Positions 1,929-39,772 of a DNA stretch of 64,000 nt are shown here, one piece after another. The notes under the pieces were generated by a model. It ran no database searches. It was not told where the DNA came from and worked only from the letters and a program-made list of their open reading frames with translations. The position numbers and the translations under genes were made by a program. Source of the DNA: a virus; IMG/VR virus record IMGVR_UViG_3300042549_007551, positions 11,791-75,790 of that record. One strand, 5' to 3'. Each line of letters begins with the position of its first letter. Positions within the stretch are counted from its first letter, which is position 1.

Positions 1929-2037
1929 AACTAAACTCTTTATTGGGGTAGTCGGGTAAGACAATCTATAAACCTTATGGGCTAAAGATTGTAACGTGGG
2001 TTCAACTCCCACCTACTCCACCAAAGAGTTTAGTTAG
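1927..2037. repeat. 15-bp perfect inverted repeat bracketing the tRNA-like gene
   Basis: ctaactaaactcttt (1927-1941) / aaagagtttagttag (2023-2037). Confidence 0.9.
1945..2023 (+). ncRNA. tRNA-like RNA resembling the isolated tRNA-like domain (TLD) of tmRNA, with Ala identity
   Basis: Acceptor stem GGGGTAG/CTACTCC with G3-U70, discriminator A, encoded CCA; T arm GTGGG-TTCAACT-CCCAC; 9-nt stemless D region; 7-bp ACAATCT/AGATTGT stem closing an 18-nt non-anticodon loop. Confidence 0.75.
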
Positions 2038-2133: not shown

Positions 2134-5100
2134 TTAACGGAGTGCAACACGACTACGTCTATACCGTACATACTGACGCCACTTTGTATTCTTAACTAAA
2201 CTATAAGGATTAACTCTAGGCTTACGCATAGTTCCGTACTTAGTAAACCAGTCTCTATAAATATTTTCATACTTAGCCCAACGTCCATTGCTACCATAAA
2301 GATAACGATAACGTTTCGGTGTGTACTTTTCATAATCAGGTACAGTATACAAAGGTAATATGCCTGAACTTAATGGAATGATTGGGTTTTTATTCTTAGA
2401 AACAAACGGAGCTAAAGGACCTTGTGTTAACTGTTCTCTTACAGGTAACTTATTAAGTACGTTACTAATAGGACCTGCAATAGCTAACTGTCTTATGCTT
2501 TGTAAAACATCTTTTGTTTCTAAAAACTTAGACAAACCTCTTAATAAAGGACGTTGTCTATCTAATAACGAACGACCTGGATCACTTAGTAATTTTTGTA
2601 CATCAAACAAACCAAACCCAAGACGTATACCAACACCATTATATATACGTAACCAACCGTTTTGCATTTCAAATAATTCAAATGGACTGTATTCTCCATC
2701 ATCATCTGTGTATTGTCCATACACACCGTCAATAATATCACTCAATAATACAGACATTCTTGGATCTAATATACGATCAATCCAGTTTGTTAAGGAACGA
2801 ACAGGGAAAGATAAATAAGGTATGTCTGCAAGTAACTGCATTTCTAAAGGACTTCTTAATCCGTAATTAAAAAATCGTTTAAGAGAAGAGTTAACAGCTT
2901 CTTGGAAAGTGTAACCTCTTAACTGTCTGTCTAATAAGTAACCTGCAATACGACCTACGTTTTCTATGTTAGCGTTTAAATCAGAGTAAGTATATTTATA
3001 ACCTTTATGAACTAAACCTAATAAACCTTTATTAAATAAACCATTCTTTTCTTTTTCTATTTCATCATAAACTTCTTTAAAGGTTCTTGTTTCAGTATCA
3101 TTGAAATCATTTAACTTTCTTTCTTCTACAATATTTCTTAAGTACTCAAAAGTTTCTTGTCTATATACGTCTACTTGTGCGTTTGTTTGCATGAAAGCAC
3201 TGACTTCAAACAATATCTTTTTAAGATCTTCATAGTCAGCAGAGTACACAGGTTGACCGTTGCTATCTAAAGTAGTTTTATATTTTTCTAAACGTTTATT
3301 AATACGTTGACGATAAAGATTTGTTTCTCCTGGATTAAACTTTAATGAATCGTACAATGTAAAATATTCTGCGAACCTTGTGTCCCCTAAAAAAGCTACT
3401 GATTCTTGAAGAGCAATATTATATGTAATATTTTTTAAAGCTTTTACATTTTTAAATTTAGAAGTAACTTTGATATTATCTAAATCTTTTATATCTTTAA
3501 CACCAATAACAACGTTTAAAATATAATTACCAATACCTTCTAAACGTTGACTAATTTCTTTTGCTTTAATTAAACGAGTTTCTATTCTTTTTTTAACATC
3601 TTCTTTTTTAATAGCTTCTGCACCGTCAATATAATTTTTTAATCTATCTTTTATAATATAAAAGTTTTCTGTGATCGTTAAAACTTCTTCATTTGTTACG
3701 TTATCTTTCTTTAAAAGTAACGATAACATCTTATCATATGCAGTTTTAACTTCTAATAAACTTAATAAACGTTCTTCAGATACATCTTTATAAATGTTAT
3801 AAACATCGTGAGTCAACCCCATGATTCTAACGATTTGTTTTCTATTTTTAAATGCACCGAAAACACCAAAGTCTTTATAGAGTTCACTATATAATTGAGT
3901 CCATGTATCTAAATAGTTTCTCATAATAAACCCATAGTTAAATCTCATTAATAACTTTTCAAGGTACTGTAACTGTGCTAATATGTTTGACCAACCACCT
4001 TTAAATCTAAATGGTTTATAAGCTTGGTTATACAAACTCATTAATGAATCGATTGTTACAAATCCAAATTGTAAATTAACACCTTCATCAGCTTGATATT
4101 TTTTAATAAGATTAAATATTTTTTCTAAATCTTTCCAACTTCTAACATCAATTTGTTTAGTAGTTAAAGATAAATCTTCTTTAAAATTAATATTATCTAA
4201 ATCTACACTAGTATATTCTTTACCATTAAAAATAATTGAATTAACTTTTTTATCTTTAGGGTCATTTAATTGTTTGACATATGATTCTATTTCATCAAAG
4301 CTATTAAATCTTACTTTATCTCTATGCTTCGCCGCCCCTATGAACTGTTGCCAACGTGTTTTCTTTTCCCATTCTGGGTCGTTTTTTCTAAACAAATCAC
4401 CAACACGTTTTATTAAACCTTCAGAAGCGTAACCATCTTTTACCACAACTAGTCTAATAAAATTAGAATTACGTTTAACATGTTCATACATTGTTTTAAA
4501 ATCGTATACTTCTTTTTTAGTTTTGTTACCATTTTGGTCTACAACAATAATGTCTTTTTTATACATACTTGCTAACGTAATAAAAGGAACAACTGATTTA
4601 TCAATGTTCATTAAATTAGTATGTTTAATTCTTTCAACATCTTGTTTACTTAAAGTTTCTTCATCACCCATGATTCTAGGTATACCTTGCTTTAATAAAT
4701 CCATGCTTTCGCCTTCAGGAGTATGTAATAAAAACATACCTTGAGCAAACTTACGTGAGAATATTTTAGATATAACTGCTAGTTTAATATCACGTCTTCT
4801 CTTTTCTAACTCTAATAATTTCTTGTTAAAATAATCTAAGGTATCTTGTTTGCTAAGATCTTTGACTTCATCAATAGCTAACTTTACTTTATTTTCTTCG
4901 TTTGATTTTTGTAATATAAGATTACCTAATGTTTTTATTCTAATTTCTTTACGTTTTATTTCATCGTTTTTACTACGAAGATTATTGTCAGCCACATTTA
5001 TTTCTTTTATGTATCTTTCAATACGATTAAATGATAATTCTTTATTCAATAAACGAATTGCAATATCATTAACAGTCGTTTTATCAACAGTTTTATTTCT

Positions 5101-8100
5101 GCTGTTATATATTTTTTGTTTGTCTTCTGTTACTATTTTAAATTCTTTAAATGCGCTAATAAGAACATCTATTAAACTATCAATAGTTACTACGTCTCGT
5201 AAAGATTCTAAGTCTTGGTCTTTTATAAACTCTAAAGCAGTTAATCTTTCTAAGTCGCTGGCATTAGTTTGTTCTGAACCAAGCGCTTTGCTATAACTAT
5301 TACCATACGGTTCTAATAATTCACTTGCAATAATACTTGCTTGTTCTTTTAAGGTAGATACAGTTGCACTGTTTTGACTTTTATTTAAACGTTGTGTAAC
5401 GTTGCCACTTTCAATATCAATGTTAACGTAGTTAGCATCTACTTCTCTTGAGCTTAAAAAGAAATCTTTACTTGCTTGATACTTCTTATCTAGGTTTAAA
5501 CGTAACTCTTCTTTGGCATTATAACCATTAAACTCAAGTAATAACTTATATAAGTAAAATGTTTTATTTAACCACGATATTTCTTTACGATCAATTCTAT
5601 CATTTGATTCAGTACCACTGCTATAGCGTGCGTTAATTTCGTTATACGTATTATTTGCCACATTAAACAACCTTAAGATTCTATAAGCAGGCATTTTTAT
5701 AGCAACTAATTCACCTAAGAAAGCATTAACAGTACCTGTTACACCGTTAATAGTTACTTCCGTATCTAATGATTCTTCTAAAGCACCTTTGTTTTTGTAG
5801 AAAACAATTGCAACTTCTTTAATAATATTAAAATAATAAGTTGAAATTTCATCAGGTATTTTTGAATCAGGGAATAATTCTTTCTTAGCATATTGATTTA
5901 TAACTGTAGTAATATCATCAATTGCTTTACTTTTTCTAGTGTAGCTTTGTGCTATTTGTACGTTTTTACTTTCTTCATTGTTGTCAATTTCTTTTTCTAA
6001 TTCTAAATTTCTTATTGATAAATTATTTGTTTCAATAGGATCACTATCTAATCCAATTGCCAAAGCGTTTTCATGTGCTTCATCTAAACCAATCGTTACT
6101 TTTCTTACACTTAATTTATCTACATTTTCTTTAACACGTTTTTTAAAGTCTCTTAAGAATTTAGTAACATCCATTCTTAAAGCACCGTGCTTTGCAATAC
6201 CAATAATAATTGTAGCATCGTTAGATTGTTTTCCTAAAATACCACGATCTATAATAACTTGATCTAAGTAATCACTACTATAGATATCAGCCATTGTACT
6301 AATGGTTGGTTTCTTTTTATCGTTAGTAACTTTATCGTTATCTTTGATTGCTTTTTTAAACTTTTTAACGTCTGCGTTATTTCTTCCAAAGTAAAATAAA
6401 TGTAAATACATTTCTTCTACTTCATTTAATTTAGTTTGTTCCATATTTCTTTTAACTAAGTCTCTGTATTTTTCTATTAAAGAACGATAAAAAGGATTTA
6501 GTATATCATCTTCTTTATTAGCAGGCTTTTGATAGTACTTATCAAAGTGTTTTACAATAGCACCCAATTTATATTCTGATTTTAAAGCAAACCCAAATGA
6601 AGACATCTCTTGTCTAACTAATAAAGATAAATAATTCTTATCAAAAATTAAACCTAAGATTTCATCAACACTTTCTTTAAAGTATTCTTTGTATTTAGCA
6701 GCATCTTCTTTATCGATATATACTTTTTTATCTTTATCATAAGCAACTTCTTTAAACCAACTATCATAAATAGTTTCGTTTAACTTTCCTTTAACTTTAC
6801 TAATAAAAACTTTCTTGTCTTTTTCTAGTTTATTTTTTCGGTCAGTAACATTTAAACTTAAATCAGATTCAATATTAATATCGTTAAGTATTCCTTTTAA
6901 ATTTGTTGCGCTTAATATTTTATCTGAGAGTGATCTTATTGTTACAACACCTAAGTTAGATTTAAAAGCGTGCCAAGCATTTCCTGTTTGATCTTTATTC
7001 ATACCTAAGAAAGGACTTATAATACTTGTTACGTTTTGTATTTTTCTTAAACCACCAAATACACCGATACCGTTTTTAGATGCTTGGAAACGTGTAATAG
7101 TTTCAATCAAACTTTGAGTATGTAATATTCTTAAAAACAATTTATAAATAATTTCTTTATCTTTTTCGTTTTTTCTTTTGAAAATAGTTTCAACTTTATT
7201 TTCTTTTATATATTGTTTATCTTCTAAACTAAAATGTTTTTCAATAACTTCATCATTAACTAATACTAAATCTTCTTTAGTCATGTACTTTGTAACATTG
7301 TATTTGTTGTTCTTGATGCTTTGATCAAACAAATAGTTTCTAGCTGCAATTTTATAAAGCGTTTCGTTTGTTTCTAATATTTTATTGACCGCATCTTTTG
7401 AATCATATTCTTTTAATTCAAAACCTTCGTATGCGTTTTCATTATATACTTCACGAATTGCTACGTTTAAAAAATACTTTTTAGCTGCGTCATCATTTTC
7501 CCAACCAACAACTTTTGGTATTTCTATTTCGCTAATATCCTTTTTAATACCGGCAAAAATAGTTCCATATAATTCTCCAAAAGAATATGAGGTTCTAATA
7601 GGTGTGCCACTTGCTCCTTTAAACACAGCTTTACCAACACTTGTTGCCTCAGTACTAATGACATCGGTTCTTCCGTTGCTTTTTACATTAGTAAGTAATT
7701 CTTTTCTTACACTTTCTAAGTATCCTTTTTCTTTCTTCTTAACGTTATTAATAGAATCCCAGCTCCAGAATCCTTCATCATAATAACTTTCTTTAGTAGC
7801 ATCATTCTTAAAGAATAAACCTTTATTAAATTGTTCATTGTTTAAAGCTATCATACCGATGGTATCACCGTCGTTATCAGCACCCATCATTTTATACATG
7901 TAAGGATTTGCTTCAATAGTTTCATTAGTATGATACCCAACAATCTTTACTGTAGGTGTAGACTTAGCGTCTTGGATAGGCCAACGTGCAGCTAATACCC
8001 AACCAAACTTAATACCTTTATTATTTGTTACAAATTTTACTGTATATGTTTTACTATCAACAACATACATTTTGTTTTCTTTGCCACTTATATTGTCGTT

Positions 8101-11100
8101 TGTTATCCCAGATTTATTTAAGTGAATAATAAAATCTTCTAGTTCTTGTTTAGAAGATAATTTAACTTCGTCTTTGTTATTAACAATAGATACGCTGTTG
8201 TTTTTATAATTTAAAGCAGTATTTATATTAAAACCATTTATTATTTTTGACCAAGAAGCGTCATCAATTCTGTCTATTTGCAGCCAATCCTTATTCTTGC
8301 TTAGTTCTTCCCATCCTTGTCTTGAAGTTCTTAGTTGGCCTAACATTAAATCAGTGTTAGCTAATAATTGTTGTCTAATACCAGGGTGTTTTCTATAAGT
8401 ATAAGAAACAATAGCACCTGTATTTCCAGTTAAAAATTCGCTAGCTCTATTCATAGCTTTTAAGTTTATTTTAGGTAAGATAATTGTTTCTAATTTTAAT
8501 CTTGTTTCTTGATTGCTTGTTCTTATAGAGAAGTTTTTATATGTTAAGTAATTAATAACTTCATCTACCATTGGTGTGTTGGTTTCTAAACTAATTTTTT
8601 TAGCCATAGCTTCAATGTCATAAGTACCGTTTGATTTTTTAATAGAATACTTTTCAATGAAAGGAAGTAACCCGTTGTTTTGTATTTCACTAAACACTTC
8701 AATTTCGTTTCTATCTTTTTGATCTAACAATACTTTCCAATTCACACCTTGTGCTTCTAATATTGCTGAAAAGGATGGAGTTATTGGTACACCACCGATG
8801 ATGCTACCTTTAATATCCCGTTCAGCAATGGATATATTTTCTTCTTCAATCAATCTAGTTCTAACATTCATTTTTTCTGCAGTATGTTCTGCATCTAAAA
8901 TGACATATATTTCACCGCGTTGAATATCAATTCCTTTAAAGTTTAAAGTATTAATATCTCCGTTACTTAAAATATTGTTAACAATTAAATCATCTTTAAT
9001 AACATCATATATAATGTCATTCCATACTGAATGGCCATCTGATGCTTTACCAAAAATACCGTCTAATATTTTTGCGTAATCTTTAGCAGCATCTAATATG
9101 ATCTTACCTTCTCTAATTTTAAACGTATCTTTTAATTCTTTTTCTTTACTTCTTAATACACTTAAGTTGTTTTTTGTTAAACCATACTTCTTTAGTAACG
9201 CGTTATCTGCAATATTTTTATAACCATCACCTTGTAATTCATCATTAACTAAATACATTCTAACTGCGTTTAAAGTTTGTTCTAATACTGCTCCACCTGC
9301 ACCACGCTTAACTAAAGATTCTTTGTTAGCGACAATATCAACGCCAAACTTTTCTTTTAAACCAACTACATAACGTATGCCACCCTTAAAACCCCACATC
9401 CCTAACCAAGTTTTATTACCTTCATCCATTCCTACAGCTTTAGCATACTCAGCATCAATTAACAAAGCGTCTTCAAAAGCACCTGGATGATTAATAAACC
9501 CAACAATAGTATTAACACCTATCTTATGTAAGATATCTCGCTTATAAAATTGATATTGTTTTTCTGTTAAATAGTTAGGTGTAAAGATATTAATAACTTT
9601 ATCTTTACCATTCTTATCTTTATAGGTTCTTAATAATCTACTAGTAATGATTTCTTTTTCTTTTGGATCAGCGATACTATCAATAAACTTACCTAAGTTG
9701 TCTTCAATAGTTGTAGCGTTTAACTTATTTAAATCTTCGTATTCGTAATAATCATTAATAATCTTATAAGGAGTATACTCTAAATAAAGTTTATTAAACG
9801 ATAATACAATACGCCCTGGGTTTGTATTTAATGTATGAGGCATATCAACATTAAGTGCTGTTAAAGGTGGGTTAGATTTACCAGCTGAACCTTCTGCAGA
9901 TTTTTCTAAATCTAAACTTAAACGCACTACATTTTTTCTAGTCCATATAATTAAAGGACTTGTTGAGTACTGTGGATCAACTAAAAATAATAATTTTGCA
10001 GGGTCATTAGCTTTAAACTTTGATAATATTCTGTCAGCAATACCTCGGTATACCTTAACAATGTCTGAATCTTTTTCGTTACGTTTCGCGCTTTGATAAG
10101 TATCATAATATCTAAAGAATCTTTGCTTTAATACCGTTGTCATATTAATACGTTCTAATGCGCTGTCTGGTATAGCATCATCAAATACTACAGATTCTCT
10201 AAACGCTGCTATTTCCTTTGCTTTAATTGCTTTATCTGTTTCGTCTTGGGTGTATTCAAACAAACCATCTTTTTGATGTTTAGCTGCTAGTTTAATAGTT
10301 TTTTCAATACTGTTATAGCTAGCGTCTATTCCATCTTCTAAGTAAATAGCTTCTTTATTTAAACCTGAAAAACCTAACTTACGTTTTCCACTCTTATCCG
10401 TATAGTTAAAGAACTTAGTTTTTAACCAGCCTTCCATGTCTTCATTAGGCTTGGGTCTATAAACAATGTCTTTAGTTTTAACTTCTAAAATTTTACCTAC
10501 TTCAACATAAGTATATCTAAATTTAAATGTTGGCATACCACCGCCAGTAGTAAACTGATAATAGTTATATATGTTATTTTGATTATCCATATAACCAACT
10601 AAATAAAAATTATCAGATGGAGATTTAGCAAGAGCTATATCGTCCTTTACAATTAAAGCTTCTTTATCTAAACCACGATGAGCATCTTTATATACACGTT
10701 TAACATTTTTAACGCCTAGTTTGTTTATAAACGATTGCTCTTCTCTTTCAGTTGCTACTCGTTGTAAACCATCAAGACGTTCATCTGGTGTAAAGTTATT
10801 AATATTTTCTTCGTTTCCGTTTAAAACTGTAAAAATATTGCTTCTTTCAAATTCTGTTTTAATACGTTCTGTATTTCTTAAGACAGAAATAACTTCTAAA
10901 AATTTATTAGTAATAACTTCGTTATTAATTTCTGTATTGTTTTTTGGTACGCCAATCTTTAAATCATTTAAAAAACTAATGTTACTGTTTACATAGTCTA
11001 GTTCTTTTTTTAAAGCCAATGTAATAAGTGTTCTTAAATTAAACTTGTCTATGTTTTTAAGTATCTTTTTTTCTTCTTCAATAACACTTATTAATCCTCT

Positions 11101-14100
11101 AGCACCTTTTTCTTTACTAAGTAAAGATACTAATGAAGCGTATGTTGTATTATCTTTTAGTTCATTTTGTTTACTTACAAGAATACTTAAGGCTTCATTA
11201 AACTTAATATTTAAATCAGTATCACTTGCTTTTAAATTACTTAACACAGGTTTAAAACTAGTTCCTAGTAAAGATTTACCTACAGTATTCCAAGCATCTT
11301 CTACTGTTTTTAATTTAATGTCTGCATCTTTTTTAAGTCCGGCTACAATTTCTTTAATCTTTTCTTCTATTTTAGCATCAATAATATTTCTGCCGTTTTC
11401 AATACCGGTAGTAAGTTTAACTAATTTACTTTGTCTTTCGTTAAATTCTTTTAATAACTTATTCTTTTCTTCATTTGTTTTTATTTTTATAATACTAGGA
11501 TCAACCATTCTACTTAAAACATCTTTAACTTTTTGAGAGTTTAAATCTATTTTTTGGTCAGCATCTGCAGGAATCAGTGTTAATAAAATTTCCATTTCTT
11601 CTAAAGTTTTATTTAATAACTTTAAGTTTTCATCTATTTCAAATTTTAACAAACCAAAATCAACACTGTTTGTTCTTATGTATTTAAATCTTTTCTTAGC
11701 ATTTTCTAACTGATTGTTTAAAACATTTTGTATACGATAAGATGTGTTGCTACGAATGTTTTTAATTTTGTCAGCAGCTTTTTTTATAATATTTTTTAAG
11801 TCATCGGTTCCTACTTTAGCAGTAACTATTTCTTTTTTTAAATTTTCAACTTCACTAATTATTTGATTTCTTTCTTTGATCAAAGCGTCTTGTGTAGCTT
11901 TAAGTTCAAGTACTTTTTCTTTATGTGATTTAACAGAAGATAAATTAACGTAAGCAATAAATTTTTTAATTTGTTCTATTTGTTTTTCTACACTGTACAA
12001 AGCTTCGTTATATTCAAAATCATTTAATTGGGTATCTTTAATACCTAGTTCTTTTTTAACAGCTTTTCTTATTGCCATACCTGTACTGGCAATAGATACA
12101 CCTTGATCTTCTTTTAAAACGCCATCTTCTAAATAGTTATTGTATTCAAGTTCTGTGTCTTTTAGTAAAGCATCTGCGTACTTTTCAATATTTTTACTTT
12201 CATCTGTGGTATGTCTTAACTTCCAACCTTCAATAAAGTAAGCAACTAACATATCTTTTAGTCTAGCTTTTTCAGCAGGATCTTTAGTACTGATGTACTC
12301 TAATACAATATTTGTAACTGATTTAATTTGTGAATTGTTTCCCGTAAATAAAGCTTCTTTAAGTTTTACATTAACTGTAATACCTAGTTTCTCTTCAATT
12401 TCTTTCATTAATTTTGTTACAATAATCGAACCTATTTCTTGGTTAAACCTAGTCATCGCTGTTATATCAGCATCGGTTAAAGCAATACCTTTATTAACTT
12501 TGTTTAATATGTTATTAATTTCTTTTTTATTTGCTTCAATAAGTTTTACTTCTTCGCCTTTATCTACAGCATCTTCTACACTTAAAAGATTTAAACGTTC
12601 TCTAACAGCTTTAGGATCGTTTTGTCTTATTAATTGATAGTATAAATTTGTCTTTAATGTTTTAGATAGTTTAAAAATAAACTCATTATAGTTTACAAAG
12701 TCAAAACGTTTACCGTTGTGTGCAACAATAGGTACTGTGTTAGGTAAAGCATTGATTTCAGAAACAAACAAGCGTATAAATTCAATGTCATTAGGTAAAC
12801 CGGCAATATTTTTTATGGTTAAATCAATACGTTTAGTATAGTCATCTAATTCATTTTTAGTTAAGTTGTTATTAATATATTCTTCTAACGCTTTAGCATC
12901 CCAATATTTTTTCTTATTAATATCTGCCCATGCTTTAAAGCCTGCGCTTTCTTTAACATACATTTTAACTTGTTGATCATAGAATCCTTCAAGTTCATCT
13001 GACTTAGTAATAGTTTTAACACCATTTGAATCTATTGTTTCTTCAATACCGTCTATAAAAATACGGTTTGTCATAAATTGGTTTAAAACATTAAACATTA
13101 ACTTACCTTTTACACGTGTAACATTTAAGATTGTTAATTGATAAGGGGTTCTTCTTCCACTTTTTTCTGTAATAGTTTCCATGTCTAACACAACAAAACG
13201 ATCAGGTATATTTTTACCACTTAATTCAATTTGTTTCATGTAGTTAAAGAAGGTAACGATGTTATCAACAACAGCGTTGTGTAAGTTTATACCTTTTTCA
13301 CCATCAATATTAGTGCTTTCAATTAAATCAAGTAATGCTTGTTTACCACCTTGATAGTAGTTTCCTGCTTCAGTAATAATACTATCTAACAGTGCTTCTC
13401 TGCTAACATCTTCTTTTATCTTATAGTTATTTCTATAAGTATCTAAGTTACTATTACCGTAAGGTTTGTTTTTCTTAGCTTCAAGTAAAAGATTATCATG
13501 TCTTAACTTTATAGGTGCACTTTCTTCTTCTAATAAATCAATTCTTTTATTTAGTTTAGAAATCTTATCAGGATTTACAACTGTGTACGTATTGATTGAG
13601 TCACGTCTATTTTTAAGAGTAGATAGTTCTGCATTTAATTGTTCTTTACTTTTAATTAAAATATCTTCTTCATCATTAAAAGCTTTTACTTCATTACTTA
13701 ATAAATAAGAAACAACTTCATCTTCTTTAACTAAACTAATTCCATCTTTTGCAACACGCTTAACAATGTTCTTAATAACATCTTCTGGTTTTTGATTCCC
13801 ATATTTATTTATGTTTTCTAAAGCAGTTTCAGCACTCTTAATGTTTTCTAAAGTAGTTTTAATATTACTTTTTAATTTCTTTAAATTGTAAATTAACTTT
13901 GAGAGGTCTGTATTTTTACTATTAATAATAATGTTATTTACACTAGTAGAAAATTCTTCTCTTAAAGTTTCTAATTGATCTAATGTGTATTCTTCTTTTT
14001 CATCTTTTAAAATCTGTAAAGACTTTGTTTTTAATTTTAAATTAAATCCACTTGATTTAAAATAAGTTGTGTCTTCTTCATTTATCTTATAGATAAGATT

Positions 14101-17100
14101 TTTTAAACGCTTATATAGTTCTTCACTCTTAAGCGTATACAAAACTTTATATTTATTTGTTTCTTTTTTAACTGTTTCTTTTGTAAGATCTTTCTTTTTT
14201 ATGTTTAATTTTTTAAATTTGTAGTCTAAAGCTATTTGTATGTAAGTTGCAACCATAAACTTTTTAAAAACATTAGTATATTTTCTATCATGTGGTTTGT
14301 AATCAACACCAGTTAACTTGCTATCTTGTAATTCTTTGACCTTGTTATCAATTTCTTCTTCATAATTTTTAAAGTCTTCAAATTCATACGTAAAAATAAA
14401 TTCATTTTCTAATTCCTGTAAGATGTACTTAGCTTTGTCTAAGTATTTATTTTTTCCTTTAACTAAAGAAGCGGTAGCTTCTTCATTTAATACAAGTTTA
14501 TTTAAATCTTGTTGTTCTTTTTTAACAAGTTCTTTTGTAGCTTCTTTTATACCACTAAAATAAACTGTTCTAATATTATTTAGATAGTATTTTACAGAAG
14601 CAATCTTACGTTCTTTAGCGCTTTGTGTATCTTCATCTAAGTAACCTTCATTAACGATGTATTGGTTAATGTTATCTATTCTTTTTTTATTTTTTTCTTC
14701 AATGTTTAAAACAATCTTAGTAAACTTTTTCCATGAATTAGTTTTAATCTTACTGTCTTTAGGACCGGTAGATAAAGTTTGTTCTAAAGCATCAATATCA
14801 TCTAATTTTTTATTAGCATTTAATATGAAATCTTTATATCCAGCTGCATTTGTAATATTGATTTTATATTTCTTTAATATTAAAATAGATTTACTGTTAT
14901 ATAAATTTTGTAATTTCTTTTTACGTATGTTCTTAAAAGCTATATACTCGTTTGTTTTAAAATAAGTTTTTTCTGCCTCAAGTTCAATTAATATTTTTTC
15001 TCTTTCTTGAAAAAATTCTTTAGGTATAAACGCTTTAACTTTTTCTAAAGCTTGTTTGTTTTCTTTTTCAGCCTTATCTAAAACAGTTAACCAATAGTCA
15101 TTAAATTCTTTCATTAAACCAGGATTGTTATTATAAATATCAATTAATAATTTTTCTTTATATGCTGCGTTTTTATCTTTTAATACTTCTATGCTGTTGT
15201 TAATACCACTAACAGCTTCTTCTAGTTTACTAATAGCTTTATTTAAACTAGACATGTTCTTATTAATTATTGTGTTTTCATTGATATCAAAATTATAGTT
15301 TAACTTAAACCCTCTTTGGCTAGCGTTAACAACTTTTAACTCTTTCTTTAATTCATCAATTGTATCTTTAATACTTAACCAAGTAGTAATAGTAGGCAAT
15401 TGTTTTAGTGCCATCTCACTGTTTGCAGCCATACCAAGCTCAACAGTATCATAAACATTACGTGTACTTGCATCTAGTTTTAAACTACTTTCTAAAACAT
15501 TAACAAGGTTTTCTATTTTTTCAATACGATCTTCTGCTTCTTTACGTTCTGATTTTGACATGTTGTTTAAAACAGATTCAGGATAAATTAACTTTAATAA
15601 TTTTTTAACACCGTGAACACTCTCAATATTGGTAGCAATTTCTGATAGTTTTAATAATTGATTACTAATATTAGCTTCTTGTATATCCATTAACCCTTGT
15701 AAAACAAGTTTTTCACGGTCTTTAATACCTTCTTGTGTCTTTAATTCAAACTTTTGTACAAGGATATAACCCATAATTGCTTTTACTTGCTCAATGTTAA
15801 CGCCTATTAAATAACCGCGGCTGTTAAAATACTTAACAATATCTTTTAATGCTTCTTCTATTTCAATAACTTTCTTAGGATCGTTAATTGTTTTAACATA
15901 TCTTTCAAAATCTTTTTTATAAAGAGTAATATATTTTTTATCTTGTTCTAAAACTAATAAAGCACTACCTATTTCTTTCATCTTAACAAAGTCGTACTTA
16001 TCTACACCGCCTTTTAATAAACTTAATACATTTGTATATCGTGTCATTAAGTTTAAATAAACACTGTCTGGGTTTCTAGTGGATACTTTATCAATTGTTT
16101 CTGCATAGTCTTCATTAATAGAGTGAAAGCTAAAATCAGCCAGTGTTTGTTCTATAACTTGTGCCATAGTACTTTGATAAGAAGGATCTGTATTAGGTTT
16201 AAACACAGCACTAAAAGCATTTCTTGTTGCTTCTCTAGTAATCTTATTAATATTATTTGGCGTAGTCATTAACAACTGTGGCTTAACAGTTACATTAGTA
16301 TCAGGTGTATCTTTTTCTTTTAAAACAATAATGTCTAGTCTATCGTTAATGCCTTTAACATAAGAACCTGCATTACTTAAATGACTTACACTATTAAATA
16401 TAGATCGTAAAATACTGTTTTCAAATGGGTCATCTTGTTGTTTAGTTTCAAAAATATTTAAAGCTTCAAGTTTTTTAATACGTCTAATGTTCTTTTTAGC
16501 TGCACCAATTCTAAATTTATTAACTGCATCTTGCCAAGACCATTGTTGTTTAAACTCATTGTTAATAAACTGTGTTTTAGCAAAGTTAATAATGTTTACA
16601 AAAGCAAACATGTTATCGTTTTTGCTTATGGTGTTATACAACACATCCATGATTTCATCTAATGTATTGTATTTTGTAAATAAATTTTCAACAGTTTCAA
16701 AATCAATACCTAAAGAATTAAATAATTTCTTAGATAAACTAATTCTTTTTTCTTTTTCATTGTGAGTATGACGTATAACGTTACCTTTATAGTCTTTAAA
16801 CCCAAATAAATATTCGTATAAGTATACTTTAAATTTTTTATTATCATCTAATAAAGGTAAATTTATTAAATTGTAAACTTCAAAAGGACTTTCAAATTTG
16901 TTTTCTTTTTTATTTCTTAATAAGTAAGACATAACTTTAAAGACATTATCGTCAATAGGACCTAATCTAGTCTTACCGCTTTCTTGTTTATACTTGTTTA
17001 AATCTATTTTAAATTGTTTAGCGACAGTTTCTATCGTTGCGTTTTCTTTCTTTAATCCACCATAAAACATAATGTTAATAAAAAGCTCAGTCATATTTCT

Positions 17101-20100
17101 TGCTTCTTTATCTTTAATGCTGTCTAAGTATTCTGAAGCACTGCCAAAGTTTTTAATAAAAGTTGGTTTAATAATTGCTTTACCGGAGGTGTCTCCAAAG
17201 AATACGTCTTCTGCTTTGTTAACAATACTTTCTATGGTTTCTTTAACTACGTTATTAAAAGCAGAAGGAGTTGTTTGCGTTATATTATCAAGAATAACGT
17301 CAGTAATATTAACACCATTTTCTTCTCTAAAATCTTCTTTTGGTTTTTTATACCAGTTCTTTACATTATCTTTATCTTGAATTCTTAAATCTTTAATCAT
17401 ACTTTCTAACGTAACAGTACTCTTTGGATCTTTTTCAAGCATCTTTTTATAGCTTAAAGAAGCATTAATTTGTAAATAAATTTCGTTTGTTTTATTAGCA
17501 TGTAAAGAAATATTGTTTATGTATTTGTTTAATGTTGTTTTTAAAACATCTTTTTTAATGCTATTAATTTCTGCGTCACTAACTGTTTTAATGTTGTCAT
17601 CAAACATAGTACTATATTTCTTTATATAATTTAAAATTGCATTAACTTGAGGGTTATTTGTTTTAACATCGGTTATTAATTCTGCTAAAGTCATGTCATC
17701 TGGTAACTCAAGTACGCTTTTTAATTGATTAAAGTAAGTATTAATTGTATTTTTAATAGCAATTTTAATACTTAAGTAGTCTTCATTTTTAAATTTATTA
17801 AAAATAGAATCATCTATATTTAAATAAGAAGCCAGACCAATTAAAGTTTTATCATCCATACGATCAATATCAAAAGTACTAGGTAAGTTTTTTATTACGT
17901 AAAATAAGTTAGTCCAGTTTAAATTTGTAGCAGTGCCTCTAACCCTAGCGTTATTTGCTTTAGTAGATTCTTTATACAAAGCTCTACTACGTCTTAGCTG
18001 TGCTGCTAAAACGCTTTCTAATGATACACCTTCAGTTTGTTTGCTGTTAAATTCTTCTTTTAATTCATTGATAAGATTTAACATTCCAACTTTTTGTGCA
18101 TTAAACAAACCTTTGTTGTATTCTTTTTTACCGTTAACTAAAACAAATGTTTTGTTTTCTGAGTGCTTTAAAATATTATTTCTGGTGGACATTTCTTTAG
18201 CAGTAATAAAACCTTCAAGCCCTGAACCAAAATAATCTTGTAACTTTTTAATAAGTTTTTTGTAATAAATATTATGGGTGTACTTTAAAGAAGATACAAA
18301 ACTATATGCAACGTCTTTTAATTGTTCTATTGTTTTTAAAAACTCTTTATTATAGATATCGTTATAGTTATTAAAAGTAATATCTTCGTTCTTATATTCT
18401 TTTTGCATAACAATAAGCGCATTTTTAATAGCATCTAATAGTGTTATTTTAATATCAGGTCCTATGTTAGTTGCATTTATTTTTATCTCTGTTAACTGTT
18501 CATATAAACGATAATTTTCTCTTCTTAAATCAGATTCAAAATTATTAAAGTTATAATTTTCTTTAATGTAACGATCAGTAAAAAAGTTTCGTCCAATAAC
18601 ATCTATATCAAAAGAACCAAAATCATTGTATAAAAGTTCTAAAAATCTAGCAAAGGCTTTTTCTTTTCTAGCTAGTCTTACAACCCTTTTAAACAAATTG
18701 GTTTGGTTAAAATTAATATTAACAACATCACCAGGTTCTACAATAGTGTATTCTTTTTTTATTCTGGCAAACTCAGTCAACTTTTTAACAAGGTCTTCTC
18801 TGCTTAACTTTAATCTATCAGCTAACTTTTGTAGGTTTTCAACATCTTTTAAGAACCCACCTAAGATACCACCTTGTCCACTTCTTGAAGTTGAGCTCTT
18901 AATATTTATATAGTTAGATTTTAACTCTCCATTTATATTTCCGTTTTTATCTTTAGTAATAACGTAATCAAAAGTATTAATATATTTCTTAGTCCTTCTC
19001 ATTTCTAATATATCTTTGTGTTGTTCCTCAGTCATGAAGTAAATATTTTTATCTTTAGAGGTTTTATCTTTTAGAGCAAATTTTACAAGGTTATTAAATT
19101 CTGAAAAAGCCGTTTCAAGATTGTCTTTGCTAACAATAATAACTGCACCAGTTTCACTGATGTCTCTTAAAGTTAAAACATAAGGATCGTATCCTTTTTC
19201 TTTTAAAACTTTAGCTATTTTTTTACTTCCTTCTGTATGTAATTCAGTATTGTGTTTGCTTATAATTTTCTCACCAATCTCAGAGTTATAGTTAGGTAAT
19301 CCTTTTACACCTGATTCATCAATATTTGAGTTGCCATTACCATCATAGTGTTCTACCACCATGTATTCTTTTGTCGCAGGATCATAAGCAATAGCAATAT
19401 TACTATCATCAGAAGTACTTCTGTTGTTATAAAACATTGTTTCAACTTTTTCAGGGTTATCAACTATGTATTTATAAAAAGCATTAAAGTCTTCTTCTAA
19501 TGCTTTATCTTTGATATTGTTTCTAAAGTTTTCATACGCATTAATACGTCTTTGAATATCGATAACTTCATTTTCTAAATCACTAATTTGGTCTTTAATG
19601 TTTTTACTCTTACTATCTTTTCTATTTTTTAATAAAGCTATACGGTTGTTTTGTCTTAACACAACGCCATTAAGTTCTTCTATTTTGTTTAATGTAGCTA
19701 CACCTTTTCCTACAGTACCTTGATAAAAGAAAACCTTTTTAACTAATAGTTCTTTGGTTTCTTGTGGTATATCTTTTGCATCTAACACATACAAAATAAA
19801 TAGTATGTCACTACTTACAGGTTTATTAATTGTTTTACCGTTTATAACAACAGTTGTTTCTGGTTTTTTAAATTCTGTATTAGCTTTTTCTAAATAGTAA
19901 AATATCTCTGGTTTTAAAACTAATTGTATATTACTATAACGATTTTTTCTTTTTAAAAATTTAGGGTCTGCAGATTCATATTGAGTTTCTAAGAACAGTA
20001 AAGTGTTTAAACTTCCGTATGCATTAATGAAATTAATATCATTAACTAAAGCATATTCTTCATCTGTTCCTTTAAACAACTCTCTGCTAATTGTTAACGG

Positions 20101-23100
20101 TGCGGTTACAATACTACTTCCAAATTTTTTAACGGCGTCTTGGTATTCATTTAATAGTTTATTACCAAGTTCACTAGCTGTTTCAGGTGTTAACGTACCT
20201 TTAGCAACTGTATTTGTTTTTAAACGATCAATAATACTAGACACAATTCTTATGTTTACATGGTGTGTTAGTAAGTATTCTAATAAGTAAACTTTTCTAG
20301 ATACTTTATTTTTGTCATTTTTAATATAAATAACTATTTGTTTATCTTCAAAAGCAAAGTAATCTAACTCTTTAAAATCAACTTCTTTTTTAAATGCTTT
20401 ATCAGTTTCGATAAAGCTGTTTAAAAAGTAAACAACTTGCATTAATCCGCTCTTTAAATTAAATGCTGGTTTAATACTATTTTCATCTTCATAGTTTCCA
20501 AACGTTTGAAAGTTAGAGAAAGTAATAATATCATCTAATAAATCTTTATGTTTATCGTCACTAATAGAAAGTGCTTTGTACACACTTGTACTTAAAGTAT
20601 AGTGCCGATCACTAGATGCTCTGATATCTTTTATTTCTGTAGCACGTATACCTTTATCAATAATATTTTTTAGATAACGATGTTTATTATTAAAGGCATA
20701 CAAATCTTGCAGTTTAATAGTCATTATCTTTAGAGCATTGCCAGCTATTAATTTATATACATCAGCAGTAATTGATTTATCCCCGCTAATTAACTTTTCA
20801 ATAAAGTCTTTTAAATAATCTTTATCATACTCAATATTATTTTCATCAAAATAATTACGTATAGATTCATTAACAGATTGATAGTAAATACGGTTTAATC
20901 GTTTTTGTTCCTTACCATCTAAAGGTAGTTTAATATCAATATCTTCTTCTTTGTTATAAAGATCACCTAAAAGTCTTATCTTATAGCTGTCACTCTTAAA
21001 CGTTTCACCACGTTTACTAAATACTTTGACCTTCTTACCTTCTTTAGAGTTGGATAAAGTATCCCAATCTATTGTAATTACTTTTTCTTTATCTAAACGA
21101 ACAAGTTCTTTTAAAACTTTTTCTAAAAAATAATAGTGCCCAGAGGATGTTCTTTTTAATCCCTTTAAAGTTTCTTTATAACTTTTTGCATCGTCTATTG
21201 TTTCACTGTCACTATTTATAAACATCGCCATTCTAAAATTAAACCTTAATTCTTTAATATTTAAAACACTAAAACCACCGGCTAGTATTTTCTTTAAAGC
21301 ATTGTAAGGATTGTTTTTATCTTTTTCAATATCACTTGTACTTAATTTAAATAATAAATTAGTTAATAAAGATTGAGGTATATTTTCTAGTTGTTTTACA
21401 ATCGTGCTTTGAACACTTAATGTACTACTAACTGCTTTTTTAATTGTATTCTTTTTAGCTTCTTCTTGTTTTCTAATTTCCTTAGTTTCAATCAACTCTT
21501 CAATCATCGTGTCGTACTCAGTTAAAAATTCTTTATCACTAAGCACTTCATCTTTTTGTAAGATGTATTCACTTTCAACAACATTGCTTTCTCTTTCTTC
21601 TAAAAATTTAATGAAAGCTGTATCAATGCTATTAAGTTTACTAACAGCATCTGGTATAGATAGCTTGTTCCAATTTTTTAATTCGTCTTCTGTTATGAAA
21701 TCAGGGAGTAATTCTTTCTTTGCTTCGTCACTTAAAAATAAATTAATATCTTTGTTAACATTAATACTGTTATAGTAATACGATTTAACATATGAATACA
21801 TTTCATTGTATTGTAAAAAGTTATTAATACGTCTTAATTCTTGATCTAAAATATCTTTAATAGCTTTCTTATCTGCTTTATTTTTTTCTGAATCAGAATC
21901 AAGAACCTTAGTTATTTTTTCAATTTGTTTATCTGCACGTTCAAATAATTTATTTACTGTATCTAACTTTTGTTTAAACAAACCATTCTTTTGATTTAAT
22001 AACTTATAAAAAACTATTTCTTTTAACTCTGTTAAGCTTACATCTTCAACACTTCTAAAGGTAGGTTTATTTTTGTTTTCAATAACTTTATTGATTGCTT
22101 CAACAACACCTAAAAGACCTCCGAAACTTTTAACTTTATCTGCTGATATATAACTATCTAACTCTAACTTTTTTATAATTCTAATTAATGTGTTTATTTT
22201 AGCAGCAGTCGTTTGTTTGTCCCAGTTTTTTTCGATGTCATCAGCATCAAAGTTTATTAATCCTTTTAATAATAAAGTAGTTTCAAATCCATCTGGAAGT
22301 AAGTTATAAATTAAACTAACGATATCTTGTTCAATTGTTTTAACAAAAGAAATTTGTACATCAACTACTTTCTTTTTTCTATTACTAGGAGTAATTGTTT
22401 TTAAAGTAGCTCTTTCTATTTCGTTGCCGTCTTTATCAACTAAAGCTACCTTAATTCCATATTGATTAGCTAGATCAACTAATGCATCACCTTCGTCACC
22501 TTCAATAAACTCATCAATAGCACGTTGTTTATTATACGTATTACGTTGTACATCTTCATCTTTTTTAGGATTGTTCTTAATAATTTCTAACTTATCTTTT
22601 AATGTTTTAATTGTTGTAGCTTTTTTATCTTGTGCATTTTGTATTTTAGTAATGCTGGTTTCTAAAGCAATAATTTCCTCAGACGCTTTTAGTTTTTCTT
22701 CTCCAGTAGCTTTAACATTTTTAGTAATCTTTAAAAGTTTATTAACTTGTTTTTTTAAATCAACTTTTTCTTTTTCTAATTCTTTATTTTCTTCTTGTAA
22801 AGTAGCAAGTTCTTCATTAATAACTAAACTACTTTTAATAAAAACAGTTTCATTAGAAAATATTTTAAAACCATTAATTACTTTTAAAACGTTAAACAAA
22901 CTTTGTTGTGCAACGGTAGTTAATTCATTTACATGTACAAGACCAGCGTCCATAAGAACAAATACTTGACTCAAAACTTTACGGTGTTTAGTAATATACG
23001 TATAGTTTAATAAAGCATTTCTTTTTGCTACATATTCAAGCGTAACTTTATCATTACCTTTTTGTCCGGCTTTTACAACGGCGTCTAAATCAGGTCCTGC

Positions 23101-39329: not shown

Positions 39330-39772
39330 ACGATTTCTCCTTTCTCTTCTATCTCTTTAATAACAGCAGCTAAACGTAATTGTTCATCAATTAACTTTTG
39401 TTTTTCATCTAAAAGAGCTTGTTTTAAAACACGTATTTCTTCTTCAAGCTTGTATAAGTAGTCTTCAATATTAGGACGAATAGGCTTCTGTCCTAATATC
39501 TGATAAACATTATACGGCAAATTAGAAACATATGTACGCACAATATGATTGTTGTCATCTAATAACTCTACTTTAACATTTATAATTTGTTGTTCTAGAG
39601 AAATATAAATGTACTCTTTATTACCTCTAAATAATTTTTCATTAAGATACAACACAGGATGCAAGTGCTGTGTGTTTGGTTCAAAAACATACTCAACATA
39701 TGTACGTTCAACCAATTCAGGCACATACATTGTTTCAATAAGTACCTTTCCGTCTATTAATTTTAATATCAT
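39326..39772 (-). CDS. hypothetical structural-region protein
   Basis: Translationally coupled at both ends; C-terminal coiled coil. Confidence 0.65.
   Translation of the reverse strand: MILKLIDGKVLIETMYVPELVERTYVEYVFEPNTQHLHPVLYLNEKLFRGNKEYIYISLEQQIINVKVELLDDNNHIVRTYVSNLPYNVYQILGQKPIRPNIEDYLYKLEEEIRVLKQALLDEKQKLIDEQLRLAAVIKEIEEKGEIV

What the first reader, a model, noticed from the sequence alone, without database searches (positions are those of the whole stretch)
12690..13210. DEDD 3'-5' exonuclease-like domain fused upstream of the RNA polymerase
RFVVLDMET (D4356, E4358) and PIVAHNGKRFD (H4511-D4517) match ExoI and ExoII of DnaQ-like nucleases. No ExoIII is evident nearby; the only candidate, AHRGLD (H5191), lies about 670 aa away across coiled-coil sequence and is imperfect. 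I do not recall a DnaQ-fold domain in a virion RNAP chain. Possible roles are RNA 3' trimming or proofreading, making ssDNA at the genome end for initiation, or a catalytically dead nucleic-acid clamp (inference).
Basis: partly seen in the sequence, partly recalled or inferred. Interest (0 to 1): 0.75.

Follow-up and report, generated by a model that had tools for sequence, protein, structure and literature searches.

The report
Circularly permuted DEDDh exonuclease domain
An 8,038-residue protein of an uncultured phage contains a DnaQ-type 3'-5' exonuclease domain whose third catalytic motif lies before the first two rather than after them, so all five catalytic residues are present but in rearranged order.

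Summary
DMET (aa 4356-4359) and PIVAHNGKRFDF (aa 4507-4518) lie in the 8,038-aa ORF (window 2134-26250, minus strand), and their key residues are invariant in about 20 homologues at 21-62% identity.

An invariant H-x4-D (LHNAVVD, H4324/D4329) sits on a helix 27 aa upstream of ExoI.

- **Profile comparison:** three separate segments align to a PF00929 profile, each at the right place: the upstream segment to ExoIII, then ExoI, then ExoII. They are the three best of 250 windows along the whole protein.
- **Fold:** AlphaFold2 gives one compact domain for aa 4245-4564 (pLDDT 83, pTM 0.80). Its ExoI-to-ExoII part matches only DnaQ-like exonucleases among alpha/beta folds, weakly (Z 4.0-5.3).
- **Packing:** a two-piece fold places the upstream helix antiparallel on strand 1. 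H4324 and D4329 are in the interface with D4356, E4358 and H4511.

Best reading: a circularly permuted (III-I-II) DEDDh domain, probably an active exonuclease. Its substrate is unknown. Pfam, PHROGs, PDB sequence search and GenBank phages find nothing. I found no report of a permuted DnaQ fold. The RNA polymerase identity rests only on a conserved DNDGD motif.

The parts
2134..26250 (-). Giant ORF of 8,038 aa (P0001). It contains no cysteine and lies at the end of the phage structural gene block.
   Evidence: ORF list and translation. 0 Cys. Upstream ORFs hit PHROGs for terminase, portal, head and tail fibre proteins. Seven full-length homologues of 7.4-8.0 thousand aa.
12553..13467 (-). Proposed permuted DEDDh exonuclease domain, aa 4262-4566.
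   Evidence: AlphaFold2 on aa 4245-4564: pLDDT 83.3, pTM 0.80. VIA-align matches to DnaQ-like exonucleases. Profile-profile alignments.
13420..13455 (-). Conserved N(S/T)N(L/I)xT(Y/F) motif with a helix, aa 4266-4277, at the N-terminal edge of the domain.
   Evidence: N4268 is kept in 15 of 16 sequences. Residues 20-27 of the model (aa 4264-4271) are in the predicted interface with the core.
13264..13284 (-). ExoIII-like motif LHNAVVD (H4324-x4-D4329) at the start of an 18-residue helix, upstream of ExoI.
   Evidence: H and D are invariant in 18 of 18 sequences. hhalign aligns them to the H and D of ExoIII in the PF00929 profile. This window ranks third of 250. Both residues are in the predicted interface with strand 1.
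13174..13200 (-). ExoI motif RFVVLDMET (D4356, E4358) on predicted strand 1.
   Evidence: D is kept in 19 of 19 and E in 20 of 20 sequences. hhalign maps it to profile positions 3-34, P 1.8e-4. It is a strand in both AlphaFold2 models.
12733..13074 (-). Segment between strand 3 and strand 4 (aa 4393-4506): a beta hairpin plus five helices. It is much longer than in canonical DEDDh enzymes and includes a lineage-specific insert of about 25-30 aa.
   Evidence: DSSP of model 2. The insert is shared with L033/L034/L036, with a shorter one in L040, and is absent in most homologues. Weak HMG-box-like matches, Z about 5.
12697..12732 (-). ExoII motif PIVAHNGKRFDF (H4511, N4512, D4517): strand 4 and the start of the following helix.
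   Evidence: H, G, F and D are kept in 19 of 19 sequences; N is replaced in 3. Best-scoring window against the PF00929 profile. A profile search of 1.84 billion proteins hit the ExoII region of a true tandem RNase_T/RNase_H_2 protein, P0022, at E 1e-4.
10666..10683 (-). Rejected.
   Evidence: H5191 is not invariant even among the four full-length proteins.
7864..7878 (-). DNDGD (aa 6125-6129), a motif of the RNA polymerase metal-binding type, 1,769 residues downstream of ExoI.
   Evidence: Present once at the equivalent place in all seven full-length homologues. No Pfam, PHROG or PDB sequence match supports the polymerase assignment.

Best explanation
Residues about 4262-4566 of the 8,038-aa phage protein form a DnaQ-like (DEDDh, RNase H-like) 3'-5' exonuclease domain that is circularly permuted. 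The helix carrying the ExoIII motif (H4324-x4-D4329), with two or three helices before it, precedes strand 1. After it come ExoI (D4356, E4358 on strand 1), strands 2-3, a long helical insertion, strand 4 and ExoII (H4511, N4512, D4517).

In the predicted fold the ExoIII helix lies antiparallel on strands 1 and 2. Its His/Asp end sits at the ExoI/ExoII end of the sheet, which rebuilds the usual five-residue two-metal site.

Because all five catalytic residues are invariant across the family, the domain is most likely an active Mg2+/Mn2+-dependent exonuclease that removes nucleotides from 3' ends. This step is inferred.

The protein lies at the end of the structural module, lacks Cys and carries a polymerase-type DNDGD motif. 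It is therefore probably packed in the virion and ejected into the host. The nuclease would then act at the very start of infection.

My guesses at the substrate, in order:
- 3' ends of the incoming phage DNA, exposing single-stranded template or processing the termini for the co-delivered polymerase (about 35%).
- 3' ends of early transcripts (about 25%).
- Host or defence-related nucleic acids (about 25%).

The likely origin is tandem duplication of a DEDDh domain followed by loss of both outer parts (inference). The nearest outside hit, P0022, is itself a tandem DEDDh protein.
For: - **Conservation:** 12 of 356 columns are invariant in 20 sequences at 21-62% identity. Five of them are the DEDDh pentad: D4356, E4358, D4517, H4324, D4329. 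H4511 of ExoII is a sixth. His makes up only 0.65% of this protein.
- **Profile-profile comparison against 29 PF00929 members:** three local alignments fall in the right places. ExoI maps to profile 3-34 (P 1.8e-4). The upstream segment maps to profile 112-171 with H on H and D on D (P 0.016 in native order; P 1.3e-5 and probability 80% in permuted order). ExoII maps to 83-107 (P 0.028).
- **Shuffle control:** each segment beats 100 of 100 column shuffles.
- **Whole-protein scan:** these are the top three of 250 windows, scoring 27.3, 21.9 and 21.4. The best window elsewhere scores 18.5.
- **Predicted structure:** AlphaFold2 on aa 4245-4564 gives pLDDT 83.3 and pTM 0.80. The element order is helices, strands 1-2-3, hairpin, helices, strand 4, helix.
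- **Fold search with VIA-align against 48,161 chains:** the top match is the PolC exonuclease 2p1j_B (Z 5.3, rmsd 3.3 A, 104 residues). Cas2-DEDDh, ExoI, REXO2, DinG exonuclease, 3'hExo, TREX1 and epsilon186 follow at Z 4.0-4.6. The top Foldseek rows are mostly RNase T and 3'hExo, with TREX2 further down the list (E 0.02-0.15).
- **Two-piece fold:** aa 4262-4348 against aa 4349-4564 scored 0.83, with the best of 3 controls at 0.29. That mark was reached by 58 of 80 solved complexes and 2 of 110 mismatched pairs. The runs agree in at least 81% of contacts and the partner's pLDDT is at least 86. The interface includes H4324, D4329, residues 110-114 of the model (D4356, E4358) and 265-267 (H4511). 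Helix residues 86-93 touch strand-1 residues 108-110 in antiparallel register. The two pieces are consecutive parts of one chain and Mg rode along, so the calibration holds only roughly.
- **Library search:** a profile search of 1.84 billion proteins found only this family plus P0022, a true tandem RNase_T/RNase_H_2 protein, matched at ExoII with E 1e-4.
- **Language-model neighbours:** the nearest named ESM Atlas clusters all carry RNase_T, RNase_H_2 or PolB-exonuclease families. Scores are 0.85-0.88, which makes them a lead only.
Against: - No curated model reaches threshold: Pfam PF00929 finds nothing on the protein or the genome, and PHROGs finds nothing.
- A family profile finds no exonuclease in the PDB by sequence.
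- Structural Z scores of 4.0-6.3 are below the level the tool calls trustworthy (about 8), and Foldseek E-values are 0.02-0.15.
- No fifth strand is predicted, so the sheet may have only four core strands.
- I could not get model coordinates. The distances between the five residues, and a non-sequential superposition on a solved DEDDh enzyme, were therefore not measured.
- The upstream segment's profile score of 21.4 is only modestly above the noise ceiling of 18.5.
- The Asn of ExoII is replaced in 3 of 19 sequences.
- Activity, virion location and substrate are all untested.
Confidence: 0.65

Rival explanations
1. The domain is a DnaQ-like fold kept as a catalytically inactive nucleic-acid or protein-binding module (a pseudo-exonuclease like Maelstrom or the exonuclease-like domains of some polymerases). 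It would serve as a clamp or scaffold in the ejected protein.
For: No fifth strand is predicted, and there is a very long helical insertion between strands 3 and 4. The ExoII Asn is lost in 3 of 19 members. Maelstrom and ESRP1 RNase H-like domains appear among the weak fold matches.
Against: All five catalytic residues are invariant in 18-20 sequences down to 21% identity, while almost everything else varies. Pseudo-enzymes normally lose such residues. His is rare in this protein.
Confidence: 0.15
2. The domain is a truncated DnaQ-like core with only ExoI and ExoII (three acidic residues). The upstream H-x4-D helix is conserved for another reason, such as packing or another site, and is not the ExoIII equivalent. 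There would then be no true circular permutation.
For: The upstream segment's profile match is the weakest of the three: P 0.016 in native order, and a score of 19.8 against a shuffle maximum of 18.8. The residue-to-residue geometry of the active site was not measured.
Against: H aligns on H and D on D of ExoIII, and the following helix aligns too. This is the third-best window of 250. H4324 and D4329 lie in the predicted interface with the strand-1 residues that include D4356/E4358, and the helix runs antiparallel so that its His/Asp end points to the active-site end. After permutation in silico, single HMMER envelopes run from ExoII through ExoIII in P0009 and P0014.
Confidence: 0.12
3. The motifs are chance matches in a long, low-complexity, Lys/Glu/Asn-rich protein, and there is no RNase H-like fold.
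For: Pfam, PHROGs and PDB sequence searches are negative.
Against: The motifs are invariant across the family. Window-scan and shuffle controls support them. The alpha/beta model is confident, and its only alpha/beta matches are DnaQ-like.
Confidence: 0.03

Closest known systems
DnaQ-like DEDDh 3'-5' exonucleases (Pfam PF00929 RNase_T): E. coli Pol III epsilon, PolC exonuclease domain (PDB 2P1J), RNase T, TREX1/2, 3'hExo, REXO2/Orn
   Same: The same five catalytic residues and the same local motifs: h-h-h-D-x-E-T on strand 1, A-H-N-x-x-F-D at strand 4 and its helix, and H-x4-D at the start of a helix. The ExoI-to-ExoII part superposes at Z 4.0-6.3 with rmsd about 3.1-5.0 A over 103-119 residues.
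   Different: Motif order is III-I-II instead of I-II-III. No fifth strand is predicted. An insertion of 75-115 residues lies between strands 3 and 4. The domain does not reach the Pfam threshold. It is embedded in an 8,038-aa chain.
P0022, a 397-aa metagenomic protein with tandem RNase_H_2 and RNase_T domains
   Same: It is the only non-family protein found by the family profile among 1.84 billion representatives (E 1e-4). Its ExoII motifs, VAHNGYKYEFP and IAHNGATFDFP, are very close to this family's.
   Different: Each copy has the canonical I-II-III order. The protein is free-standing and short. It shows the kind of tandem arrangement from which a permutation could arise (inference).
Viral DEDDh exonucleases attached to replication or transcription machinery: coronavirus nsp14 ExoN, arenavirus NP exonuclease, phage T4 DexA (from my own knowledge)
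   Same: A DEDDh nuclease encoded by a virus and, for nsp14 and NP, physically linked to a viral polymerase complex.
   Different: Those have canonical motif order, occur in RNA viruses or as a free phage enzyme, and none is part of a virion-packed DNA-phage giant protein. No sequence relation was detected here.
Virion RNA polymerases of N4-like and crAss-like phages (N4 vRNAP; phi14:2 gp66) and podovirus ejection or core proteins (from my own knowledge)
   Same: A very large, Cys-free protein at the end of the structural module with one polymerase-type Asp motif (DNDGD).
   Different: No detectable sequence similarity to any solved structure or any GenBank phage. I know of no report of an exonuclease domain in those proteins, and the paper searches found none.

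Membership tests
DEDDh (DnaQ-like) exonucleases, PF00929 / RNase H-like clan | ExoI: D-x-E at the end of strand 1 | tested here: met
   D4356 is kept in 19 of 19 and E4358 in 20 of 20 sequences. It is a strand in both models and aligns to profile ExoI.
DEDDh (DnaQ-like) exonucleases, PF00929 / RNase H-like clan | ExoII: N-x2-3-(F/Y)-D after strand 4 | tested here: met
   F4516 and D4517 are kept in 19 of 19 sequences. N4512 is kept in 16 of 19, replaced by G, A or F in three. This is the best profile window.
DEDDh (DnaQ-like) exonucleases, PF00929 / RNase H-like clan | ExoIII: H-x4-D at the start of a helix | tested here: met
   H4324 and D4329 are kept in 18 of 18 sequences. They align H on H and D on D to the profile's ExoIII.
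DEDDh (DnaQ-like) exonucleases, PF00929 / RNase H-like clan | Collinear order ExoI-ExoII-ExoIII along the chain | tested here: not met
   The order here is III (4324-4329), I (4356-4358), II (4511-4517) in every family member.
DEDDh (DnaQ-like) exonucleases, PF00929 / RNase H-like clan | RNase H-like alpha/beta fold with a five-stranded mixed sheet | tested here: inconclusive
   Strands 1-4 and the ExoII helix superpose on DnaQ-like domains at Z 4.0-6.3. No fifth strand is predicted.
DEDDh (DnaQ-like) exonucleases, PF00929 / RNase H-like clan | Score above the curated Pfam threshold | tested here: not met
   No PF00929 hit on the protein or in the six-frame genome search.
DEDDh (DnaQ-like) exonucleases, PF00929 / RNase H-like clan | The five catalytic residues clustered at one two-metal site | tested here: inconclusive
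   H4324, D4329, D4356, E4358 and H4511 are all in one predicted interface, and the helix register points the His/Asp end to the ExoI end. No distances could be measured.
DEDDh (DnaQ-like) exonucleases, PF00929 / RNase H-like clan | Metal-dependent 3'-5' exonuclease activity | not testable with these tools
   Needs an enzyme assay.
Phage virion RNA polymerase (N4 / crAss-like type) | Catalytic Asp motif and a polymerase fold | tested here: inconclusive
   DNDGD is invariant in seven full-length homologues. There is no Pfam, PHROG or PDB sequence match. That region was not folded.

The most novel reading that the evidence does not exclude
This is the first natural circular permutation of the DnaQ/DEDDh exonuclease fold. 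It is a fully active nuclease carried into the cell as part of an ejected 8,000-residue protein that also holds a virion RNA polymerase. There it resects the 3' end of the entering phage DNA, or trims nascent RNA, so that the polymerase can start early transcription. That would be a nuclease-primed transcription start not described for N4-like or crAss-like phages.
Probability: 0.25. Interest if true: 0.8.

Novelty: new variant of a known kind. Interest (0 to 1): 0.65.

Why it matters
DEDDh exonucleases are among the best-studied nucleases, and their I-II-III motif order is treated as a family hallmark. A natural III-I-II version that keeps all five catalytic residues would show that the fold tolerates permutation. 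It would also explain why standard profiles (Pfam, PHROGs) miss this domain.

For phage biology, it adds a probable enzymatic activity to a lineage of giant, Cys-free proteins that are presumably ejected and are otherwise unannotated. That lineage is known only from metagenomes. It also raises a testable idea: early transcription by a virion polymerase may be coupled to processing of nucleic-acid ends.

Tried and rejected
- **Negative family and structure searches:** Pfam and PHROGs scans of the whole protein and of the region found nothing relevant. A PDB sequence search with a four-sequence profile gave only a chance seryl-tRNA synthetase hit at E 1.4. A PDB sequence search with the polymerase-like region found nothing.
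- **GenBank phages:** tblastn of the domain and of the polymerase-like region against 50,697 genomes found no match.
- **Viral structure library:** Foldseek against BFVD found nothing at E <= 0.001 and no informative row.
- **Tool limits:** The look-up of encoding contigs refuses proteins over 5,000 aa. The search for related loci refuses a query over 5,000 aa, and with the single sequence it found no viral relatives. Relatives were reached instead with a degenerate DNA pattern for the ExoII motif and with a small alignment.
- **Unhelpful scan:** the genome-contig scan with E. coli DnaQ returned only proteins more than 91% identical, useless for a profile. I built the PF00929 set from the genome search instead.
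- **First model:** VIA-align on model 1 was dominated by helical-hairpin matches to aa 4545-4625, so I folded a second model without that part.
- **HMMER on single sequences:** native against in-silico permuted order gave only 0-15 bits and no difference in total score. It serves only as a weak colinearity hint.
- **AHRGLD (H5191) as ExoIII:** rejected, not conserved.
- **Downstream candidates:** LLSVEDAV (aa 4556-4563) as strand 5 and RHTTDE (aa 4679-4684) as ExoIII were rejected. They are not conserved, and the alignment and pLDDT are low-confidence there.
- **Literature:** paper searches for a permuted DEDD/DnaQ fold, or for an exonuclease in virion polymerases, found nothing relevant.
Full report
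**Where it is**

The window holds a single open frame of 8,038 codons on the minus strand, nt 2134-26250. It follows, on the same strand, ORFs that match PHROG families for primase, large terminase, portal, head and tail-fibre proteins. The genome is an IMG/VR virus record of 75,790 bases, estimated 77% complete. So the ORF is a phage gene at the end of the structural block.

RFVVLDMET is aa 4351-4359 and PIVAHNGKRFDF is aa 4507-4518.

**Relatives**

A word-indexed search found three proteins of about 7,700 aa that are about 30% identical along the whole length. A degenerate DNA pattern for the ExoII motif and a small alignment then recovered DNA loci from viral and metagenome collections.

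A profile search of 1.84 billion representative proteins found only 20 hits. Nineteen belong to this family, either giant proteins or contig-truncated pieces. The other is P0022 (E 1e-4). P0022 is a true tandem RNase_H_2/RNase_T protein, and it is matched at its ExoII motif. No GenBank phage has a relative.

**Conservation**

The family alignment has 20 sequences, 21-62% identical to the window. Only 12 of 356 columns are invariant: H4324, D4329, N4336, D4356, E4358, T4359, P4369, Y4370, H4511, G4513, F4516 and D4517.

The new point is H4324-x4-D4329 (LHNAVVD). It sits at the start of a helix 27 residues before ExoI and is invariant in all 18 sequences that cover it. This is the form of the DEDDh ExoIII motif.

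His makes up only 0.65% of this protein. No conserved His or Tyr plus Asp pair exists in the 200 residues after ExoII.

**Profile evidence**

I built a profile from 29 true PF00929 domains taken from 31 genomes, plus the second domain of P0022. I compared it with the family alignment using hhalign. Three separate local alignments appear, each at the right place:

| Segment | Profile positions | P value |
|---|---|---|
| ExoI | 3-34 | 1.8e-4 |
| Upstream segment, aa about 4283-4343 | 112-171 (His on His, Asp on Asp) | 0.016 native order; 1.3e-5 (probability 80%) permuted order |
| ExoII | 83-107 | 0.028 |

Each segment beats 100 of 100 column shuffles.

I also scanned 250 overlapping 64-residue windows over the full 8,038-residue alignment. 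The three best windows are ExoII (27.3), ExoI (21.9) and the upstream ExoIII-like segment (21.4). The best window anywhere else scores 18.5 and the median is 10.2.

Curated libraries do not see the domain. Pfam, PHROGs and a PDB profile search are all negative.

**Fold evidence**

Its fold searches were dominated by a helical hairpin. Its only alpha/beta match was the PolC exonuclease domain 2p1j_B (Z 6.3, rmsd 3.1 A, 103 residues).

The second model, aa 4245-4564 with 15 sequences, has pLDDT 83.3 and pTM 0.80. That fits one compact domain which includes the upstream helices. Its element order is:
- helices, with the ExoIII-like helix at model residues 82-99;
- strand 1 (107-117), strand 2 (123-136) and strand 3 (139-148);
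- a hairpin, then helices 174-256;
- strand 4 (264-265) and the ExoII helix (274-299).

VIA-align against 48,161 chains again puts 2p1j_B first (Z 5.3, rmsd 3.3 A, 104 residues). The other alpha/beta matches near the top are nearly all DnaQ-like: Cas2-DEDDh, ExoI, REXO2, DinG exonuclease, 3'hExo, TREX1 and epsilon186, at Z 4.0-4.6. The exceptions are a type III pantothenate kinase at Z 4.5 and two more lower down. Every DnaQ-like match covers only the first 105-125 residues of the target, from ExoI to the ExoII helix. A sequential aligner would be expected to behave this way if the last third of the fold had moved to the front.

The top Foldseek rows are mostly RNase T and 3'hExo, with TREX2 further down the list, at weak E-values of 0.02-0.15. 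These Z scores are below the level the tool regards as safe, so on their own they are only supportive.

**Does the upstream helix sit at the active site?**

- The score was 0.83, and the best of 3 controls was 0.29.
- The mark was reached by 58 of 80 solved complexes and by 2 of 110 mismatched pairs.
- The runs agree in at least 81% of contacts, and the partner's pLDDT is at least 86.
- The calibration holds only roughly here. I used my own alignment, a ligand rode along, and the pieces are parts of one chain.

The interface list is the useful output. On the upstream piece it includes model residues 79-80 and 85-90, which contain H4324 and D4329. On the core it includes 110-114 (D4356, E4358) and 265-267 (up to H4511).

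Helix residues 93, 89-90 and 86 touch strand-1 residues 108 and 110. So the helix runs antiparallel to strand 1, and its His/Asp end lies at the end of the strand that carries Asp and Glu. This is the arrangement needed to rebuild a DEDDh site. It is a prediction, not a measurement.

**Interpretation**

The simplest reading is a circularly permuted DEDDh domain in the order III-I-II that keeps the whole catalytic pentad.

A permutation by tandem duplication and loss of the outer parts is the textbook route. The nearest outside relative is itself a tandem DEDDh protein, which fits that route (inference).

Invariance of all five residues in a family that otherwise diverges to 21% identity argues for an active enzyme rather than a dead clamp.

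What it acts on cannot be read from the sequence. The protein also carries one invariant DNDGD motif 1,769 residues downstream. It has no Cys, as do five of the six other full-length homologues. It ends the structural module. All of this fits an ejected protein with a virion polymerase.

If the protein is ejected, a few copies of a 3'-5' exonuclease would suit a specific early task. I rank resection or processing of the entering phage DNA end first, trimming of early RNA second, and attack on host or defence nucleic acids third.

**Novelty**

Full-text searches found no report of a permuted DEDD/DnaQ fold, and none of an exonuclease domain in phage virion polymerases. The library is incomplete, so this is absence in what was searched.

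I rate it a new variant of a known kind. The chemistry and fold are familiar. The topology and the context (a giant phage protein from an uncultured lineage) are not.

Earlier notes of this scan on the same genome had flagged the polymerase-like motifs and the lack of Cys. I confirmed the Cys count and the conservation of DNDGD, but nothing more about the polymerase.

Noticed in passing
window 2134-26250 (-), and homologues P0002-P0005, P0008, P0013: The giant protein has no cysteine in 8,038 residues. Five of the six other full-length homologues (7.4-8.0 thousand aa) also have none, and one has a single Cys. This composition is conserved across the family.
   Followed up: partly
window 12787-12993 (-), aa about 4420-4488: The helical insertion between strands 3 and 4 gives weak matches to HMG-box or ARID-like three-helix DNA-binding domains (Z 4.7-5.3, about 60 residues). 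Such scores are common for small helical units. The window, L033, L034 and L036 carry an extra insert of about 25-30 residues here (L040 has a shorter one) that most homologues lack.
   Followed up: no
P0022 (397 aa, metagenomic): A free-standing protein with two exonuclease domains in tandem. The first has a degenerate ExoI (GIET) and matches RNase_H_2. The second is a canonical DEDDh (DLET, AHNGATFDF, HDALGD). It is a possible model for how a permutation could arise.
   Followed up: partly
window aa 3489-3584 of the giant protein (nt about 15499-15786): Two overlapping windows give the best scores outside the domain against the PF00929 profile (18.5 and 17.7, profile positions 18-61). This is probably noise, but I did not examine it.
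   Followed up: no
window 39769-45507 (-): A 1,912-aa protein matches PHROG families annotated as 'regulator of chromosome condensation' (RCC1-like repeats, E 8e-27) and a tail protein family. It is probably a tail or receptor-binding protein with a beta-propeller.
   Followed up: no
window 1945-2023: Other first-stage notes propose a mini-tmRNA or tRNA-like gene here. ARAGORN finds no tRNA or tmRNA anywhere in the window.
   Followed up: partly
This would fit an ejection protein, but the scores are too weak to use.
   Followed up: no
whole giant ORF and its relatives: The lineage is known only from metagenomes; one source title names activated sludge. There is no relative among 50,697 GenBank phage genomes for either the exonuclease domain or the polymerase-like region.
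   Followed up: partly
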